From a virus (Duplodnaviria > Heunggongvirae > Uroviricota > Caudoviricetes), in the IMG/VR virus record IMGVR_UViG_2877982868_000014: a stretch of DNA of 64,000 nucleotides; one strand, given 5' to 3'. The notes under the pieces are model-generated. The model did not search any database. It saw nothing but the letters and a program-made list of their open reading frames with translations, and had not been told where the DNA came from. Numbering within the stretch: the first letter of the stretch is position 1; the number at the start of each line of letters is the position of its first letter. Below are positions 893 through 4,812 of this stretch, one piece after another. The position numbers and the translations under genes are program-made.

Positions 893-1090
893 GGCCGCAT
901 AACCTCCTGCTTTGTTGTTGATGCCTTTCTCATGCAATCGATCGACAAAAACGATCGATTCGATTTGTTTAATTGATACAACAAATAGATTGAAAAGTCA
1001 TCAACAATGATTCAGGGCGGTGATTATTTACTTAAAGAAAACGAAGACTTAGGTGGTGAAAACGATCATAAAATGATCATTTTATTGACT
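893..1090 (-). promoter_or_regulatory. com-mom upstream control region with clustered GATC sites in palindromes
   Basis: Four GATC sites (940, 953, 1064, 1075). Two lie in AATCGATCG-N7-CGATCGATT (936-960) and one in the 14-bp palindrome AAAATGATCATTTT (1070-1083). The position corresponds to the Dam/OxyR-controlled Pmom region of Mu. Confidence 0.5.
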
Positions 1091-1162
1091 TTTTATACAG
1101 TGAAGGTAGGATCGCGCGTATATGTAGTATGTTTCAAATCAACAGGATACTACATAAAGGGA

Positions 1163-1190
1163 GGTCCAGATAGTTACAGCTATCTGGACC
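1163..1190. repeat. perfect 11-bp inverted repeat with 6-nt spacer
   Basis: GGTCCAGATAG-TTACAG-CTATCTGGACC. It lies about 100 bp upstream of the plus-strand zinc-ribbon ORF. Confidence 0.8.
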
Positions 1191-1293
1191 TGGAACAAAT
1201 TCGCATCAATGCTTTACTTCGAGCTCGTGTCGTATCCTATGATATTCCCCGGTCTCCTGTAAAGCAGAGATGCATAAAAAGGAGATCTTTATC

Positions 1294-1464
1294 ATGGATA
1301 AAGAGCCTGTTTGCCCTGCCTGTAAGACTCCCTTACAGCTCATCTATCGCCGTTCTCGATCTCAAAATGGCAAGACATACAAACCCCAAAATGCGTCCTG
1401 TTTCAGGATGCTGATATGTCCTGCCTGTTCTCCCCGGAGGGAAAGTACACAAAACGTGCATTAA
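1294..1464 (+). CDS. small zinc-ribbon protein (56 aa), hypothetical
   Basis: ATG at 1294 preceded by AAGGAG at a 9-nt spacing. Two CPAC motifs (CPACKTP...CPACSPR). Followed by the hairpin at 1474-1493. Confidence 0.5.
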   Translation: MDKEPVCPACKTPLQLIYRRSRSQNGKTYKPQNASCFRMLICPACSPRRESTQNVH

Positions 1465-1473
1465 CAAATTCAC

Positions 1474-1493
1474 CCGGCAGGGAAACCTGCCGG
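1474..1493. terminator. hairpin between convergent genes (8-bp GC stem, GAAA loop)
   Basis: CCGGCAGG-GAAA-CCTGCCGG. On the minus strand it is followed by a T-rich tract. The U-tract on the plus strand is weak. Confidence 0.55.
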
Positions 1494-1783: not shown

Positions 1784-1966
1784 TCAGAGCGGGGTCGGGT
1801 CGTTTGGGGATGACGGTGCCTGTGCTGTTTTACTGAGTTTTTCAGCTGCCGCATCATCAATTTTACGGCGAATATAATTTCTGATGACCTTATAACCGCC
1901 GCTCACCAGATATAACGCACTGACCACTGCGCAGAAATAAAGCAGCATTGTATGAACGAATGTCAT
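1784..1966 (-). CDS. small membrane protein (60 aa, one N-terminal TM segment, basic then Pro/Ser tail)
   Basis: ATG preceded by AAGGTAAGG. Hydrophobic stretch MLLYFCAVVSALYLVSGG followed by KVIRNYIRRK. Confidence 0.55.
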   Translation of the reverse strand: MTFVHTMLLYFCAVVSALYLVSGGYKVIRNYIRRKIDDAAAEKLSKTAQAPSSPNDPTPL

Positions 1967-2034
1967 ATAACCTTACCTTTGATATTGACTACATAATTCG
2001 TTATCGGGTAAAAACATCGAAGCGACTGATAACC

Positions 2035-2059
2035 ACTCCTTCGGGAGTATTTTTATTTT
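2035..2059 (+). terminator. intrinsic terminator, plus-strand orientation
   Basis: ACTCC-TTCG-GGAGT followed by ATTTTTATTTT. No plus-strand ORF ends here. Confidence 0.6.
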
Positions 2060-2078
2060 CCTTTATGGGTTAGGTAGC

Positions 2079-2114
2079 TCCCGCCAGCCATATCATGACC
2101 GGCGGGATTTTTTT
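2079..2114 (+). terminator. intrinsic terminator, plus-strand orientation
   Basis: TCCCGCC-N15-GGCGGGA followed by T7. The T-run overlaps the stop codon of the minus-strand esterase gene. Confidence 0.6.
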
Positions 2115-4152
2115 ATTCTGTTACCGCTTTTTTCACTTCCACCACAATGCTGTCAATCAGCACCGGGTAAGTTGCATTTTTTGTGATATCCGTTACGCGG
2201 AGTTTGTCCACCGGGAAAGTTCCTACTGGTGACTGCGTCAGGGTAAACGCGGCACCATCCTGACCATCAATAACCGGAATAACCTGAAGGCTGTTATTTC
2301 CTGCAAAACGGAAGGCCAGCGTATGCCATTCATTATCAAATGCACCAAAGGTTCCCAGTTTCTGGTTATTTGTTGCCACTTTTGCATTGTGGTACATCAC
2401 ATTCAGGTCTTTTGCGTCTGTCTGGATGTAGAACGATGCCAGCAGATTATTCCCTGCATCCCCTGTCAGGGTGACACCCTGCGGCAGAGAGGAAACCGGC
2501 CAGTAAAGCGCCATGACATACTGGTTTGCCACCAGGTCGCCCGGTACTTTAAAACGACAACTGATTAAACCACCATTTTTCAGCAGTTCAGCACCAGTAC
2601 CGGCATCATGATCCAGATACCAGGATGATTTACCTGTTTCCTTGGTCAGTTTCATTGCCTTACCACCTGTGCCTCCTGCATCACTGATAATTTCAGCTTT
2701 ACCGCCAGCCGGCTCCCAGCCCTGGGCTTTCAGATTTCCTTCTGACTCACTGACACGGTAAGACAGCAGTGTTGTGGTTACTGCTTCAGTTTCTGAAGGT
2801 GACGGCACTGGTGCTTCAGTTTCAGAAGATGGAACATCGGCTTTTACTGTGGTTCGCCCCGCATGAGTCAGAACTGCCGTGGCCAGACGGTCGGAAATAA
2901 TCCCACGACGTGCCCATGAACTGAAATGGCTGGCCCGGTCCGTAGATGTCCAGGTGGCGGCACTGTTACGCCACGTTGAGCCGTAATAACCAATGGATTC
3001 AATATCCGGGTCTTCTGCCGGATTGTTGGTGGGTACATTCGCGCCATTTTCATCTGTCATTAATGGGACGAAATGAATGTTTTTATCTGTTTTATTTTTG
3101 TAGCCGTCATAGATTGCCTGGTATGCCTGTTCGTTTTTCTGTTTCCAGAAATACGTGGTATCACCACAAATCCACGGAACGCCAGCAGCACTGCCACCGG
3201 TACACTGTTCCGCCTGTTCAGCCAGGTCTGCGCGGAATTTTTCCACCATCGCCAGAAACAGCGCAGAATGCTCCGTCGGCTTCGCATCAATATCAAACTC
3301 GCCCTGCATCCACACCACAGCAAGCAGGCGGTTTTTCGGGTTCTTCGCCAGTGCCGCTTTTGTCCGGCTGATTAAGTCCTTATACAGCGGCTTATCCACA
3401 CCCCAGCGGGCTGAGTCCTCTGAAGCACCCGTGCTGTCACTGTACGTGCCGTCAGCACCCGCCGTGAATGCAGAACCACCACGGCAGCAGGGAACCAGCA
3501 GAATCCCCGCATCTGCCGGAATAAACGGCAGCAGTTTTTTGGCAATGTGAAGCCCCTGACCCACGGTGCCATATTGCCCTTTAGCCACATCCGCTTTCGG
3601 GTGATTTTTTCCACTCATATCCTGCACATCATGCAGACAGTGGTCGGCCAGAATGATGTCGTTATACTGACAGGCTTTACCTCCCGGCGTGACTGTACTG
3701 CGACGGGCTAACTGCATAATACGCGGTTCGGGGCGGTCATATGTCTCCGGCAGTGGCAGACCTTCACCGTAAGCCATACCGTTTGACTGACCAGCAAGAA
3801 CCACCACGTAATACCAGGAAGGGGAGCTGGAAGCAGTTTCATTTCCTGACGGACGGGTATGTGTTTCAGCATTATCCCAGTCTGACGGTTCAGCAGTACC
3901 GGCAACATCAGCACTTAACGGAATGACCGCACCAATACCCGCTCCGGTAATTTCCACACTCGGATCACCGGATACTGGCCTTACCCACAGGCAATCCCGT
4001 GTATTAAAACTGATGAGACAGTCAGCAAATGTCATTCCTCCTTTTGTTTCGGCCGGAGGAAAGGGAGCCTCAAGAAATGCCGCTGTACCACCGGAAACTT
4101 TAACAGTAAAGTTTCCGGGCATTGATGATAGTTGAACCCATTTGGACGTCAT
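2113..4152 (-). CDS. SASA/DUF303-family carbohydrate esterase (NanS-like sialate O-acetylesterase) with C-terminal lectin-like domain
   Basis: 679-aa ORF. Catalytic-type blocks VVVLAGQSNGMAYG and VVWMQGEFD are typical of the sialate O-acetylesterase family. The C-terminal ~190 aa resemble a LamG/concanavalin-type fold (inference). Mu has no gene between gin and com. Confidence 0.7.
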   Translation of the reverse strand: MTSKWVQLSSMPGNFTVKVSGGTAAFLEAPFPPAETKGGMTFADCLISFNTRDCLWVRPVSGDPSVEITGAGIGAVIPLSADVAGTAEPSDWDNAETHTRPSGNETASSSPSWYYVVVLAGQSNGMAYGEGLPLPETYDRPEPRIMQLARRSTVTPGGKACQYNDIILADHCLHDVQDMSGKNHPKADVAKGQYGTVGQGLHIAKKLLPFIPADAGILLVPCCRGGSAFTAGADGTYSDSTGASEDSARWGVDKPLYKDLISRTKAALAKNPKNRLLAVVWMQGEFDIDAKPTEHSALFLAMVEKFRADLAEQAEQCTGGSAAGVPWICGDTTYFWKQKNEQAYQAIYDGYKNKTDKNIHFVPLMTDENGANVPTNNPAEDPDIESIGYYGSTWRNSAATWTSTDRASHFSSWARRGIISDRLATAVLTHAGRTTVKADVPSSETEAPVPSPSETEAVTTTLLSYRVSESEGNLKAQGWEPAGGKAEIISDAGGTGGKAMKLTKETGKSSWYLDHDAGTGAELLKNGGLISCRFKVPGDLVANQYVMALYWPVSSLPQGVTLTGDAGNNLLASFYIQTDAKDLNVMYHNAKVATNNQKLGTFGAFDNEWHTLAFRFAGNNSLQVIPVIDGQDGAAFTLTQSPVGTFPVDKLRVTDITKNATYPVLIDSIVVEVKKAVTE

Positions 4153-4251: not shown

Positions 4252-4812
4252 TTATTTTTCCGAAACGCTCGCAGGATAATAACGATAAAGGGTTGAAAGA
4301 CCGATATCAAAAATAAGTGCCACCTGTCTTCGACTGACACCCCCGGCCAGTAAACGCCCGACCTGCTCGTATTGTTCCTGCGTGAGACGGCGGGGTCTGC
4401 CGCCGGTTCGTCCCCTTTCACGGGCAGCTGCAAGACCAGCCCGTGTCCGTTCGACAATTAATTCACGCTCCATTTCTGCCAGCGCACCCATTATGTGAAA
4501 AAAGAAGCGCCCCATGGGGGTTGACGTATCAATGTTGTCAGTAAAACTACGAAAATTTATCCCCTGTTGCTGTAATTCATCTGTCAGCGCAACAAGGTGG
4601 CGCATACTGCGCCCCAGCCTGTCCAGTTTCCAGACCATCAGCGTGTCACCGGGTTTTAGTTTCTTCAGTGCCCGCTTCAGTCCCGGCCGCTGTGTCGTTT
4701 TACCACTCATTTTGTCTTCAAAAATCTGCTCACATCCTGCACATTCCAGCGCATTTCTTTGTAAACCTGTGTTCTGGTCATTTGTTGATACGCGTATATA
4801 GCCAATCAGCAT
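4252..4812 (-). CDS. gin: Gin/Hin/Pin-family serine DNA invertase
   Basis: 186 aa. MLIGYIRVSTNDQNTGLQ... carries the catalytic Ser motif, with a C-terminal HTH. Adjacent to the gix site at 4867-4892. Confidence 0.93.
   Translation of the reverse strand: MLIGYIRVSTNDQNTGLQRNALECAGCEQIFEDKMSGKTTQRPGLKRALKKLKPGDTLMVWKLDRLGRSMRHLVALTDELQQQGINFRSFTDNIDTSTPMGRFFFHIMGALAEMERELIVERTRAGLAAARERGRTGGRPRRLTQEQYEQVGRLLAGGVSRRQVALIFDIGLSTLYRYYPASVSEK

What the first reader, a model, noticed from the sequence alone, without database searches (positions are those of the whole stretch)
1784..2114. Two orphan plus-strand intrinsic terminators next to a small membrane-peptide gene: candidate sRNA / type I toxin-antitoxin-like arrangement
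Between the esterase stop (2113) and the start of the 60-aa TM peptide (1966), the plus strand carries two strong terminators in tandem: ACTCC-TTCG-GGAGT+ATTTTTATTTT at 2035-2059, and TCCCGCC...GGCGGGA+T7 at 2079-2114. No plus-strand ORF ends there. A promoter-like TTGACT (1985-1990) with TAAAAA 18 bp downstream could start a 35-95 nt transcript ending at these terminators. That transcript would be antisense to any esterase-to-peptide read-through mRNA. A small hydrophobic peptide with an adjacent antisense RNA is the signature of type I TA modules. A simpler alternative is that these terminators insulate the esterase from antisense read-through out of the zinc-ribbon gene, whose own hairpin (1474-1493) has a poor U-tract.
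Basis: inference. Interest (0 to 1): 0.55.

Follow-up and report, generated by a model that had tools for sequence, protein, structure and literature searches.

The report
Known prophage small RNA (EcOnc37)
The two hairpins belong to a roughly 94-base Hfq-bound small RNA gene, already catalogued as EcOnc37 in the Mu-like prophage of E. coli O157:H7, and nothing supports the proposed toxin-antitoxin pairing with the neighbouring membrane peptide.

Summary
The plus strand of 1985-2114 carries a TTGACT-18-TAAAAA promoter-like site, a weak UUCG hairpin with a U-rich tail, and a strong GC hairpin plus T7 that overlaps the esterase stop codon.

The sequence is identical to prophage Sp18 of E. coli O157:H7 Sakai. 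There, this strand of this intergenic region is a published Hfq-crosslinking peak, EcOnc37 (Tree 2014). I map it to window 2053-2123. Published RNase E-CLASH reads (Waters 2017) contain window 2056-2094.

Across 46 distinct sequences downstream of related esterase genes (lambdoid, P2-like and Mu-like prophages), all 46 have an antisense hairpin plus T-run touching the esterase stop. 43 also match the promoter pattern, while the RNA body diverges. The same slot holds Northern-validated sRNAs: PasC and PasA in EPEC, and EcOnc33 in Sakai.

The type I toxin-antitoxin reading is not supported:
- The sRNA occurs where no DUF1378 gene exists.
- It does not overlap the DUF1378 ribosome-binding site or coding sequence.
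- It shows no above-chance pairing to the DUF1378 start region.

The feature is real but already known. Its targets are unknown.

The parts
1979..1990 (+). TTGATA followed by the -35 hexamer TTGACT (1985-1990) of the sRNA promoter. It lies 13-24 nt upstream of, and antisense to, the DUF1378 start codon.
   Evidence: Sequence. TTGAC is invariant in 17 divergent representatives. 43 of 46 distinct homologous regions match the promoter pattern. In PasC the published 5' end lies 35 nt after the start of the equivalent TTGACA.
2009..2014 (+). A-rich -10-like element TAAAAA, 18 nt after the -35. It is non-canonical because it has A instead of T at the last position.
   Evidence: Sequence. The two A columns 2012-2013 are invariant and 2010-2011 nearly so. 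The simple promoter scan did not call it because it requires a T at position 6.
2020..2114 (+). Predicted sRNA of about 94-95 nt, equal to EcOnc37 of Sakai prophage Sp18. The 5' end is inferred from promoter geometry. The 3' end lies in the T-run.
   Evidence: Window 1960-2125 is identical to Sakai Sp18. Hfq-CRAC peak EcOnc37 is 5077340-5077410 on the minus strand, found in 5 of 5 datasets with a terminator flagged. CLASH read halves map to 2056-2094 and 2062-2090 on the plus strand.
2035..2048 (+). Stem-loop 1: a 5-bp stem with a UUCG loop, read as an internal structure or weak first terminator.
   Evidence: -6.6 kcal/mol. Variant L076 carries two changes that re-form a hairpin in a shifted register, ACTAC...GTAGT (by inspection). 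The hairpin is degraded in the P2-like copy.
2049..2078 (+). U-rich single-stranded linker AUUUUUAUUUUCCUUUAUGGGUUAGGUAGC, a likely Hfq contact and candidate pairing region.
   Evidence: It is included in both CLASH read halves and in the Hfq peak. ATGGGT is shared with the P2-like and D/E variants.
2079..2114 (+). Intrinsic terminator of the sRNA: hairpin 2079-2107 plus T7 at 2108-2114. The T-run overlaps the esterase stop codon.
   Evidence: -14.7 kcal/mol. An equivalent hairpin plus T-run is present in 46 of 46 distinct homologous regions, with different stem sequences.
2053..2123 (+). Published Hfq crosslinking peak (EcOnc37) converted to window coordinates.
   Evidence: Conversion: window position + Sakai NC_002695.1 position = 5079463, derived from the CLASH read sequences. 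Independent support comes from strand-specific Hfq reads for intergenic region ECs4993...ECs4994.
2071..2114 (-). The same hairpin read on the sense strand, forming the 3' end structure of the esterase mRNA. It is a 13-bp stem with two G-U pairs and has no U-tract after it.
   Evidence: -23.2 kcal/mol; 0 of 200 shuffles fold as well. An intramolecular RNase E-CLASH hybrid ECs4993 3'UTR::ECs4993 (count 51) maps here.
2113..4152 (-). SASA/DUF6645 carbohydrate esterase (NanS-p-like; ECs4993). The sRNA unit is attached to the 3' end of this gene.
   Evidence: Pfam PF03629 and PF20350. Annotation.
1784..1966 (-). DUF1378 protein, 60 aa, with an N-terminal hydrophobic helix (ECs4994). It is a neighbour of the sRNA gene, not a demonstrated partner.
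   Evidence: Pfam PF07125, E = 1e-38. PHROG 494, unknown function. Hydropathy 1.83 over residues 4-22.

Best explanation
Window 1985-2114 (+) is a self-contained small-RNA gene. It is the copy of EcOnc37 carried by the Mu-like prophage (Sakai Sp18 type) of E. coli O157:H7.

Proposed mechanism:
1. A promoter with a near-consensus -35 (TTGACT) and an A-rich -10-like element starts transcription around 2020. This start is inferred.
2. The RNA has a short single-stranded 5' end, a small UUCG stem-loop and a U-rich linker.
3. It ends at a GC-rich intrinsic terminator whose U-tail overlaps the stop codon of the convergently oriented esterase gene.
4. The RNA binds Hfq in lysogens. This is shown by published crosslinking.
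5. Like its positional counterparts PasA, PasC and EcOnc33, it most likely acts as an Hfq-dependent base-pairing regulator of mRNAs in trans. This is inferred by analogy.
6. It is also perfectly complementary to the esterase-DUF1378 junction of any sense transcript, so it could act in cis on that mRNA. This too is inferred.

The first hairpin is an internal element or a leaky terminator. The second is the real 3' end. The unit belongs to the 3' end of the esterase gene and is not paired with the DUF1378 peptide.
For: - The sequence is identical to Sakai Sp18.
- Tree 2014 Table S2 lists EcOnc37 in Sp18 on this strand, in 5 of 5 Hfq-CRAC datasets, with a predicted terminator. Table S1B lists strand-specific Hfq reads for intergenic region ECs4993...ECs4994.
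- Waters 2017 CLASH reads annotated EcOnc37 contain window 2056-2094 and 2062-2090 on the plus strand. These fix the peak at window 2053-2123.
- The promoter and terminator are conserved while the body diverges: 46 of 46 terminators and 43 of 46 promoter matches, with invariant TTGAC, AA, stem core and T-run at 50% mean identity.
- The same slot holds validated sRNAs. PasC is 79 nt and ends 2 nt from the esterase stop. PasA has forms of 85 and 236 nt, and the long form ends at the esterase stop. Both were confirmed by Northern blot and are Hfq-dependent.
- The EcOnc51 peak maps onto the equivalent terminator in Sp12.
- An EcOnc33 CLASH read matches the lambdoid 'variant B' esterase-DUF1378 spacer. 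EcOnc33 runs at about 71 nt on a Northern blot.
Against: - EcOnc37 itself has no published Northern blot or mapped 5' end. The start at about 2020 and the 94-nt length are predictions.
- The -10-like element lacks the usual final T.
- All EcOnc37 CLASH hybrids I read are single reads with poor FDR, so no target is established.
- Sequence similarity to PasA, PasC and EcOnc33 is not significant by BLAST. The relationship rests on position and architecture.
- The hairpin is more stable on the sense strand (-23.2 against -14.7 kcal/mol), so part of its conservation could serve the esterase mRNA.
Confidence: 0.82

Rival explanations
1. Type I toxin-antitoxin module. DUF1378 would be a membrane toxin. 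The plus-strand RNA would be its antitoxin, pairing with a long 5' untranslated region of the DUF1378 mRNA, as in tisB/istR-1.
For: - DUF1378 is 60 aa with one hydrophobic N-terminal helix.
- The RNA is divergent from DUF1378 and would be fully complementary to positions -54 to -148 of any read-through mRNA.
- The esterase-sRNA-DUF1378 trio travels together in Mu-like, P2-like and many lambdoid prophages.
Against: - The sRNA unit is kept where no DUF1378 gene exists: Sp12, EPEC PP2 and PP5.
- DUF1378-like genes exist without the unit (L064-L067).
- The RNA does not overlap the ribosome-binding site or coding sequence.
- Duplex energies with the start region are no better than shuffles in 11 variants.
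- DUF1378 is not in PHROG or NCBIfam toxin categories; its function is listed as unknown.
- Counterpart RNAs PasA and PasC have many trans partners on Hfq.
Confidence: 0.05
2. Pure insulation. The hairpins would be only terminators that stop antisense transcription from entering the esterase gene (for example from the ECs4996-like gene at 1007-1464), and the short RNA would be an inert by-product.
For: - Both hairpins have T-tracts only on the plus strand and sit exactly at the esterase 3' end.
- The hairpin after the plus-strand gene (1474-1493) has a poor U-tract.
Against: - A promoter-like site is conserved at a fixed distance upstream of the terminator in 43 of 46 variants.
- The unit is present in lambdoid and P2-like contexts where the annotated neighbouring genes show no convergent gene in that position.
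- The RNA is bound by Hfq in 5 of 5 datasets, and counterparts are abundant Hfq-dependent sRNAs.
Confidence: 0.06
3. The sense-strand function is primary. The GC hairpin would be chiefly a 3' stabilising or RNase-processing stem-loop of the esterase mRNA, and the antisense RNA would act mainly in cis on the esterase-DUF1378 junction rather than in trans.
For: - On the minus strand the stem is 13 bp with two G-U pairs, at -23.2 kcal/mol, against -14.7 on the plus strand where these positions are A-C mismatches.
- The D/E variants share the A-C/G-U asymmetry.
- An intramolecular RNase E-CLASH hybrid (count 51) maps to the sense hairpin.
- PasA RIL-seq partners include the 3' ends of the esterase mRNAs.
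Against: - The T-run (T5-9) is conserved only on the antisense side (by inspection of the sequences).
- Most variants have perfect Watson-Crick stems that do not discriminate between strands.
- A sense-strand role does not explain the conserved antisense promoter.
- This reading can coexist with the main explanation rather than replace it.
Confidence: 0.07

Closest known systems
EcOnc37 (Tree et al. 2014, Mol Cell; Hfq-CRAC candidate sRNA in Sakai prophage Sp18)
   Same: It is the same locus, strand and sequence. The window is identical to Sakai over 1960-2125, and the published peak and CLASH reads map to 2053-2123 and 2056-2094.
   Different: Nothing differs in sequence. The publication gives only a peak and a terminator flag. 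It gives no Northern blot, no 5' end, no promoter, no targets and no listed homologues.
PasC and PasA of EPEC E2348/69 (Pearl Mizrahi 2021; Zhu, Shabalina and Storz 2026 preprint), with their EHEC homologues EcOnc51/52
   Same: - They are antisense sRNAs located immediately downstream of a SASA esterase gene.
- They have a TTGACA -35 followed by an A-rich -10-like element.
- Their intrinsic terminator has a T-run that touches the esterase stop.
- They are Hfq-associated and 79-85 nt long.
   Different: - There is no significant sequence similarity outside the promoter and terminator.
- Their esterase C-terminal domain is only about 37% identical to this one.
- They are followed by the holin gene, with no DUF1378.
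- They sit in lambdoid rather than Mu-like prophages.
- PP2 and Sp12 carry two tandem units.
EcOnc33 (Sakai prophage Sp6; about 71 nt on Northern blot)
   Same: Its CLASH reads match the 'variant B' spacer found between an esterase gene and a DUF1378 gene in the viral loci, which is the same gene arrangement and the same promoter-terminator layout as here.
   Different: The RNA body and the terminator stem sequence are different (GCCGCCGG/CCGGCGGC). Global identity is about 51%.
Type I toxin-antitoxin loci with divergent antitoxin RNAs (tisB/istR-1, zorO/orzO, shoB/ohsC); compared from general knowledge
   Same: A small hydrophobic peptide gene lies next to a divergently transcribed small RNA with its own promoter and terminator.
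   Different: - No overlap with, or above-chance complementarity to, the peptide's translation start region.
- The RNA and the peptide gene occur independently of each other.
- The peptide lies in a phage late or cargo operon.
AsxR/AgvB anti-sRNAs (Tree 2014)
   Same: They are prophage-encoded, Hfq-bound, antisense-oriented short RNAs located next to the same esterase gene in Stx phages.
   Different: They lie upstream of the esterase (AsxR is 282 bp 3' of stx2AB), are 51-60 nt long, and share a conserved 3' region of about 42 nt that is absent here.

Membership tests
EcOnc37 (specific catalogued sRNA) | Same genomic locus and strand as the published Hfq-CRAC peak | tested here: met
   Window 1960-2125 is identical to Sakai Sp18. 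The peak converts to window 2053-2123 (+) using CLASH read sequences.
Hfq-dependent trans-acting sRNA | Own promoter | tested here: inconclusive
   The TTGACT-18-TAAAAA site is conserved across divergent variants. No 5' end has been mapped for this RNA, and the -10 is non-canonical.
Hfq-dependent trans-acting sRNA | Rho-independent terminator with a poly-U tail | tested here: met
   Hairpin of -14.7 kcal/mol plus U7. It is conserved in 46 of 46 variants.
Hfq-dependent trans-acting sRNA | Binds Hfq in vivo | tested here: met
   Taken from published data, not a new experiment: 5 of 5 Hfq-CRAC datasets, and strand-specific reads for intergenic region ECs4993...ECs4994.
Hfq-dependent trans-acting sRNA | Regulates mRNAs through a seed region | not testable with these tools
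   Only single-read CLASH hybrids exist (ECs4627 5'UTR and ECs2098). There is no functional test.
PasA/PasC sRNA family | Position: antisense, terminating at the stop codon of a SASA esterase gene | tested here: met
   The T-run at 2108-2114 overlaps the stop at 2113-2115. PasC ends 2 nt from its esterase stop.
PasA/PasC sRNA family | Recognisable sequence homology of the RNA body | tested here: not met
   blastn-short finds only 7-8 nt words. Global identity is 55-58%. Rfam has no match.
Type I toxin-antitoxin | Small hydrophobic membrane peptide | tested here: met
   DUF1378 is 60 aa, with hydropathy 1.83 over residues 4-22.
Type I toxin-antitoxin | Antitoxin RNA complementary to the toxin mRNA at or near its translation start or a defined standby site | tested here: not met
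   The RNA starts about 54 nt upstream of the ATG. Duplex energy with positions -35..+30 is within the shuffle range in 11 variants. Complementarity exists only to a hypothetical long 5' UTR.
Type I toxin-antitoxin | Toxin and antitoxin genes always occur together | tested here: not met
   The sRNA occurs without DUF1378 in Sp12, PP2 and PP5. DUF1378-like genes occur without the unit in L064-L067.
Type I toxin-antitoxin | Peptide is toxic when expressed without the RNA | not testable with these tools
   This needs an expression experiment.

The most novel reading that the evidence does not exclude
In lysogens, EcOnc37 might pair with the esterase-DUF1378 junction of leaky sense transcripts. 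That pairing would trigger cleavage or block a standby site, keeping the DUF1378 membrane peptide silent. The arrangement would then be a type I TA-like safeguard that travels with the esterase cassette between Mu-like, P2-like and lambdoid phages. In this reading the hairpin is used on both strands.
Probability: 0.06. Interest if true: 0.6.

Novelty: already known. Interest (0 to 1): 0.22.

Why it matters
The scan picked out, from sequence alone, a real regulatory RNA gene of an EHEC prophage. That supports the value of orphan terminator plus promoter signatures as a search cue.

There is little new biology, because the RNA is already catalogued as EcOnc37. This analysis adds three modest points:
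- An exact anatomy for EcOnc37: promoter, predicted start, internal stem-loop and terminator.
- Evidence that EcOnc37, EcOnc33, EcOnc51/52, PasC and PasA occupy one conserved slot at the 3' end of NanS-p-type esterase genes. The slot keeps its promoter and terminator while the RNA body changes. It moves with the esterase into Mu-like and P2-like prophages.
- A hairpin that looks usable on both strands.

The targets of EcOnc37 remain unknown. They could connect the Mu-like prophage to host regulation in O157:H7.

Tried and rejected
- Rfam at permissive E-values over 900-2400 gave only chance-level hits.
- A distant BLAST of the spacer against the phage collection found only two Stx-phage records that carry an inserted Mu-like phage.
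- Full-text searches for EcOnc37, ECs4993/4994 and guessed Sp18 coordinates found nothing. The coordinate offset between Sakai genome versions was solved from CLASH read sequences instead: 127 nt here and 142 nt at Sp5.
- Duplex prediction between the sRNA and the DUF1378 start region was no better than shuffles. This argues against trans pairing.
- blastn-short against PasA, PasC and EcOnc33 gave no significant similarity.
- RNAalifold on the 17-sequence alignment recovered only the 6-bp terminator core, because loops and arms are misaligned between subfamilies. Per-sequence folding was used instead.
- One phrase search of the CLASH supplements failed on term formatting.
- I considered treating hairpin 1 as a true first terminator. 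It was rejected as the main 3' end because the Hfq peak and reads lie downstream of it and it folds at only -6.6 kcal/mol.

Full report
**Where the window comes from.** The first 5 kb of the window is the right end of a Mu-like prophage of E. coli O157:H7. On the minus strand lie:
- mom (1-738) and com (about 692-900);
- a DUF826 gene (1503-1748);
- a DUF1378 gene (1784-1966);
- a 679-aa SASA/DUF6645 esterase (2113-4152);
- a Gin-type invertase (4252-4812).

These assignments come; mom and com from my reading of the ORF translations and the RefSeq 'Com family' and (in Sakai) 'DNA modification protein' annotations. The region is 100% identical to several O157:H7 genomes and 98.4% identical over 4.2 kb to prophage Sp18 of strain Sakai. 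Window 1960-2125 is identical to Sakai. The window plus strand corresponds to the Sakai minus strand. The spacer 1967-2112 lies between ECs4993 (esterase) and ECs4994 (DUF1378).

**Observation check.**
- ACTCC-TTCG-GGAGT lies at 2035-2048 and is followed by ATTTTTATTTT. It folds at -6.6 kcal/mol.
- TCCCGCC...GGCGGGA lies at 2079-2107 and is followed by T7 at 2108-2114. It folds at -14.7 kcal/mol. The T-run overlaps the esterase stop codon.
- TTGACT lies at 1985-1990, with TAAAAA 18 nt downstream.
- T-tracts follow the hairpins only on the plus strand.

**Published evidence for the RNA.** Tree et al. 2014 (PMC4104026) list an orphan Hfq-crosslinking peak, EcOnc37. It lies in Sp18 on the minus strand at 5077340-5077410, appears in 5 of 5 datasets, and has a predicted Rho-independent terminator. 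No Northern blot was done. Their Table S1B separately ranks the intergenic region ECs4993...ECs4994 57th among intergenic regions by Hfq reads. Almost all of its reads fall in the column that, by comparison with ssrA, tufB and AsxR, corresponds to the minus strand.

Their coordinates refer to an older genome version. At Sp5 the offset to the current version is 142 nt. For Sp18 I fixed the offset from actual read sequences. Waters et al. 2017 (PMC5286369) report RNase E-CLASH hybrids annotated EcOnc37. The EcOnc37 halves of those reads are TTTATGGGTTAGGTAGCTCCCGCCAGCCA and TTTTCCTTTATGGGTTAGGTAGCTCCCGCCAGCCATATC. These are window 2062-2090 and 2056-2094 on the plus strand. The offset is therefore 127 nt, and the Hfq peak is window 2053-2123 (+).

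So a plus-strand RNA covering the U-rich linker and the second hairpin exists in vivo and is bound by Hfq. It extends past hairpin 1, so hairpin 1 is at best a leaky terminator.

**Comparative evidence.** I collected 63 viral loci through DUF1378 and 80 through the esterase C-terminus. To these I added Sakai Sp5 and Sp12, EPEC PP2 and PP5, and a P2-like prophage. Among the 151 sequences held (150 loci and the window), the sequence downstream of the esterase stop falls into 46 distinct variants.
- All 46 have a T-run of 5-9 next to the stop on the antisense strand, preceded (in all but one variant, L062, where the folding routine returned no hairpin) by a GC-rich hairpin of -11 to -22 kcal/mol.
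- 43 match TTGAC-N16-19-A-rich hexamer at 60-105 nt from the T-run. By my reading, the three failures are two PasC-type regions whose A-rich element is AGAAAAT, and one sequence in which no TTGAC was visible in the stretch printed.

In an alignment of 17 representatives with 50% mean column identity, the invariant columns are TTGAC (window 1985-1989), AA (2012-2013), the stem core GCC/G..GG and the T-run. Stem sequences differ between subfamilies while pairing is kept. Examples are TCCCGCC/GGCGGGA, GCCGCCGG/CCGGCGGC, CCGCCAGCG/CGCTGGCGG and AGCCAGCG/CGCTGGCT. This is the pattern expected of a transcription unit whose promoter and terminator are under selection while its body diversifies.

**The slot holds validated sRNAs elsewhere.** Table S6 of Pearl Mizrahi et al. 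2021 (PMC8550237) gives coordinates for two EPEC sRNAs.
- PasC is 79 nt and ends 2 nt from the stop of a SASA esterase gene.
- PasA has a major 85-nt form and a minor 236-nt form. The minor form ends at the esterase stop.
- Both are antisense to the esterase, confirmed by Northern blot and Hfq-dependent.
- EcOnc51/52 are named as their EHEC homologues.

The published PasC 5' end lies 35 nt after the start of its TTGACA, which fits that hexamer being a -35. With the 142-nt offset measured at Sp5, the EcOnc51 peak converts onto the terminator abutting the Sp12 esterase stop. An EcOnc33 CLASH read (Sp6; about 71 nt on a Northern blot) matches the 'variant B' spacer, which lies between an esterase gene and a DUF1378 gene in the viral loci. 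[quoted passage not shown]

By BLAST, the window RNA resembles only the P2-like and 'D' variants. It does not resemble PasA, PasC or EcOnc33. It is therefore a positional and architectural counterpart of those RNAs, not a demonstrable sequence homologue.

**Anatomy and likely mechanism.**
- With the -10-like element at 2009-2014, transcription should start near A2020/A2021, giving an RNA of about 94 nt (inferred).
- The predicted fold has a free 5' end of about 15 nt, then the UUCG stem-loop, a 30-nt U-rich linker and the terminator.
- This matches the usual layout of Hfq-dependent sRNAs (general knowledge).
- By analogy with PasA and PasC, which have many RIL-seq partners, the most likely role is trans regulation of host or prophage mRNAs in the lysogen.
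- The EcOnc37 CLASH hybrids I saw are single reads with poor FDR, so no target can be named.
- The RNA is also fully complementary to the esterase-DUF1378 junction of sense transcripts, so a cis effect is possible but untested.

**Type I toxin-antitoxin hypothesis.** DUF1378 does have one hydrophobic N-terminal helix. The other defining features fail:
- The sRNA unit occurs without DUF1378 in Sp12, PP2 and PP5.
- DUF1378-like genes occur without the unit.
- The RNA begins about 54 nt upstream of the start codon.
- Predicted duplexes with the start region are within the shuffle range in 11 variants.
- DUF1378 has no assigned function in PHROGs or NCBIfam.

I put this reading at about 5%.

**Insulation hypothesis.** Protection from read-through out of the plus-strand gene at 1007-1464 cannot explain conservation in the lambdoid and P2-like loci I examined, where the annotated neighbouring genes show no convergent gene in that position. 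It also does not explain the conserved promoter.

**An open detail.** Hairpin 2 is more stable on the sense strand. It forms a 13-bp stem with two G-U pairs at -23.2 kcal/mol, because the two A-C mismatches of the plus strand become G-U pairs. A 51-count intramolecular CLASH hybrid maps to the sense-strand hairpin. The stem may therefore also serve as the 3' structure of the esterase mRNA. This is compatible with the main explanation.

**Verdict.** The RNA is already catalogued as EcOnc37 and belongs to a known kind of prophage sRNA. The toxin-antitoxin interpretation is not supported. Interest is low to moderate.

Noticed in passing
window 1162-1191: A perfect 12-bp inverted repeat (AGGTCCAGATAG..CTATCTGGACCT) lies inside the ECs4996-like ORF, with a T-rich tail on the minus strand. 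Sakai has a different sequence at the same place that still forms a 10-bp hairpin (CCCAGCATAG..CTATGCTGGG) followed by TTTCACTTTTAT. The flanks are near-identical. It looks like a covarying minus-strand terminator for the esterase-DUF1378-DUF826 genes, embedded antisense in a coding region.
   Followed up: partly
window 1007-1464: The plus-strand 'zinc-ribbon gene' is the C-terminal part of an ECs4996 homologue (PHROG 26524). Here it is split by a 1-nt deletion near 1299 relative to Sakai's intact 154-aa gene. RefSeq marks it as frameshifted in an identical genome.
   Followed up: yes
window 2071-2114, minus strand: Hairpin 2 is much stronger on the sense (esterase mRNA) strand, at -23.2 against -14.7 kcal/mol, because two A-C mismatches become G-U pairs. 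A published intramolecular RNase E-CLASH hybrid (count 51) maps to it. The stem may be used on both strands.
   Followed up: partly
window 930-965: A GATC-rich palindrome (AATCGATCGACAAAAACGATCGATTCGAT) lies just upstream of com/mom. It resembles the Dam-methylation-dependent control region of the Mu mom operon (from general knowledge).
   Followed up: no
L002 4848-7052 (E. coli JNEC-KY174, P2-like prophage): The esterase, sRNA unit and a 50-aa DUF1378 gene are inserted as a block between lysC and the tail genes of a P2-like prophage. The spacer is 71% identical to the window. The cassette evidently moves between unrelated phage types.
   Followed up: partly
L068 4950-5190 and L070 2765-3045 (Sakai Sp12, EPEC PP2): Two promoter-terminator units lie in tandem behind the esterase gene: PasA, then a second unit ending at the esterase stop. 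PP5 has a single unit (PasC) that combines the PasA-type promoter and 5' part with the distal-type terminator. This suggests recombination between units.
   Followed up: partly
window 1474-1493: A strong 8-bp GC hairpin with a GAAA loop (about -17 to -18 kcal/mol on both strands) lies between the convergent DUF826 and ECs4996-like genes. It has poor U-tracts on both sides.
   Followed up: no
window 48204-48232: This is the only other match in the 64-kb window to the pattern TTGAC-N17/18-[TG]AAAA[AC]. It is on the plus strand and I did not examine it. It may be chance.
   Followed up: no
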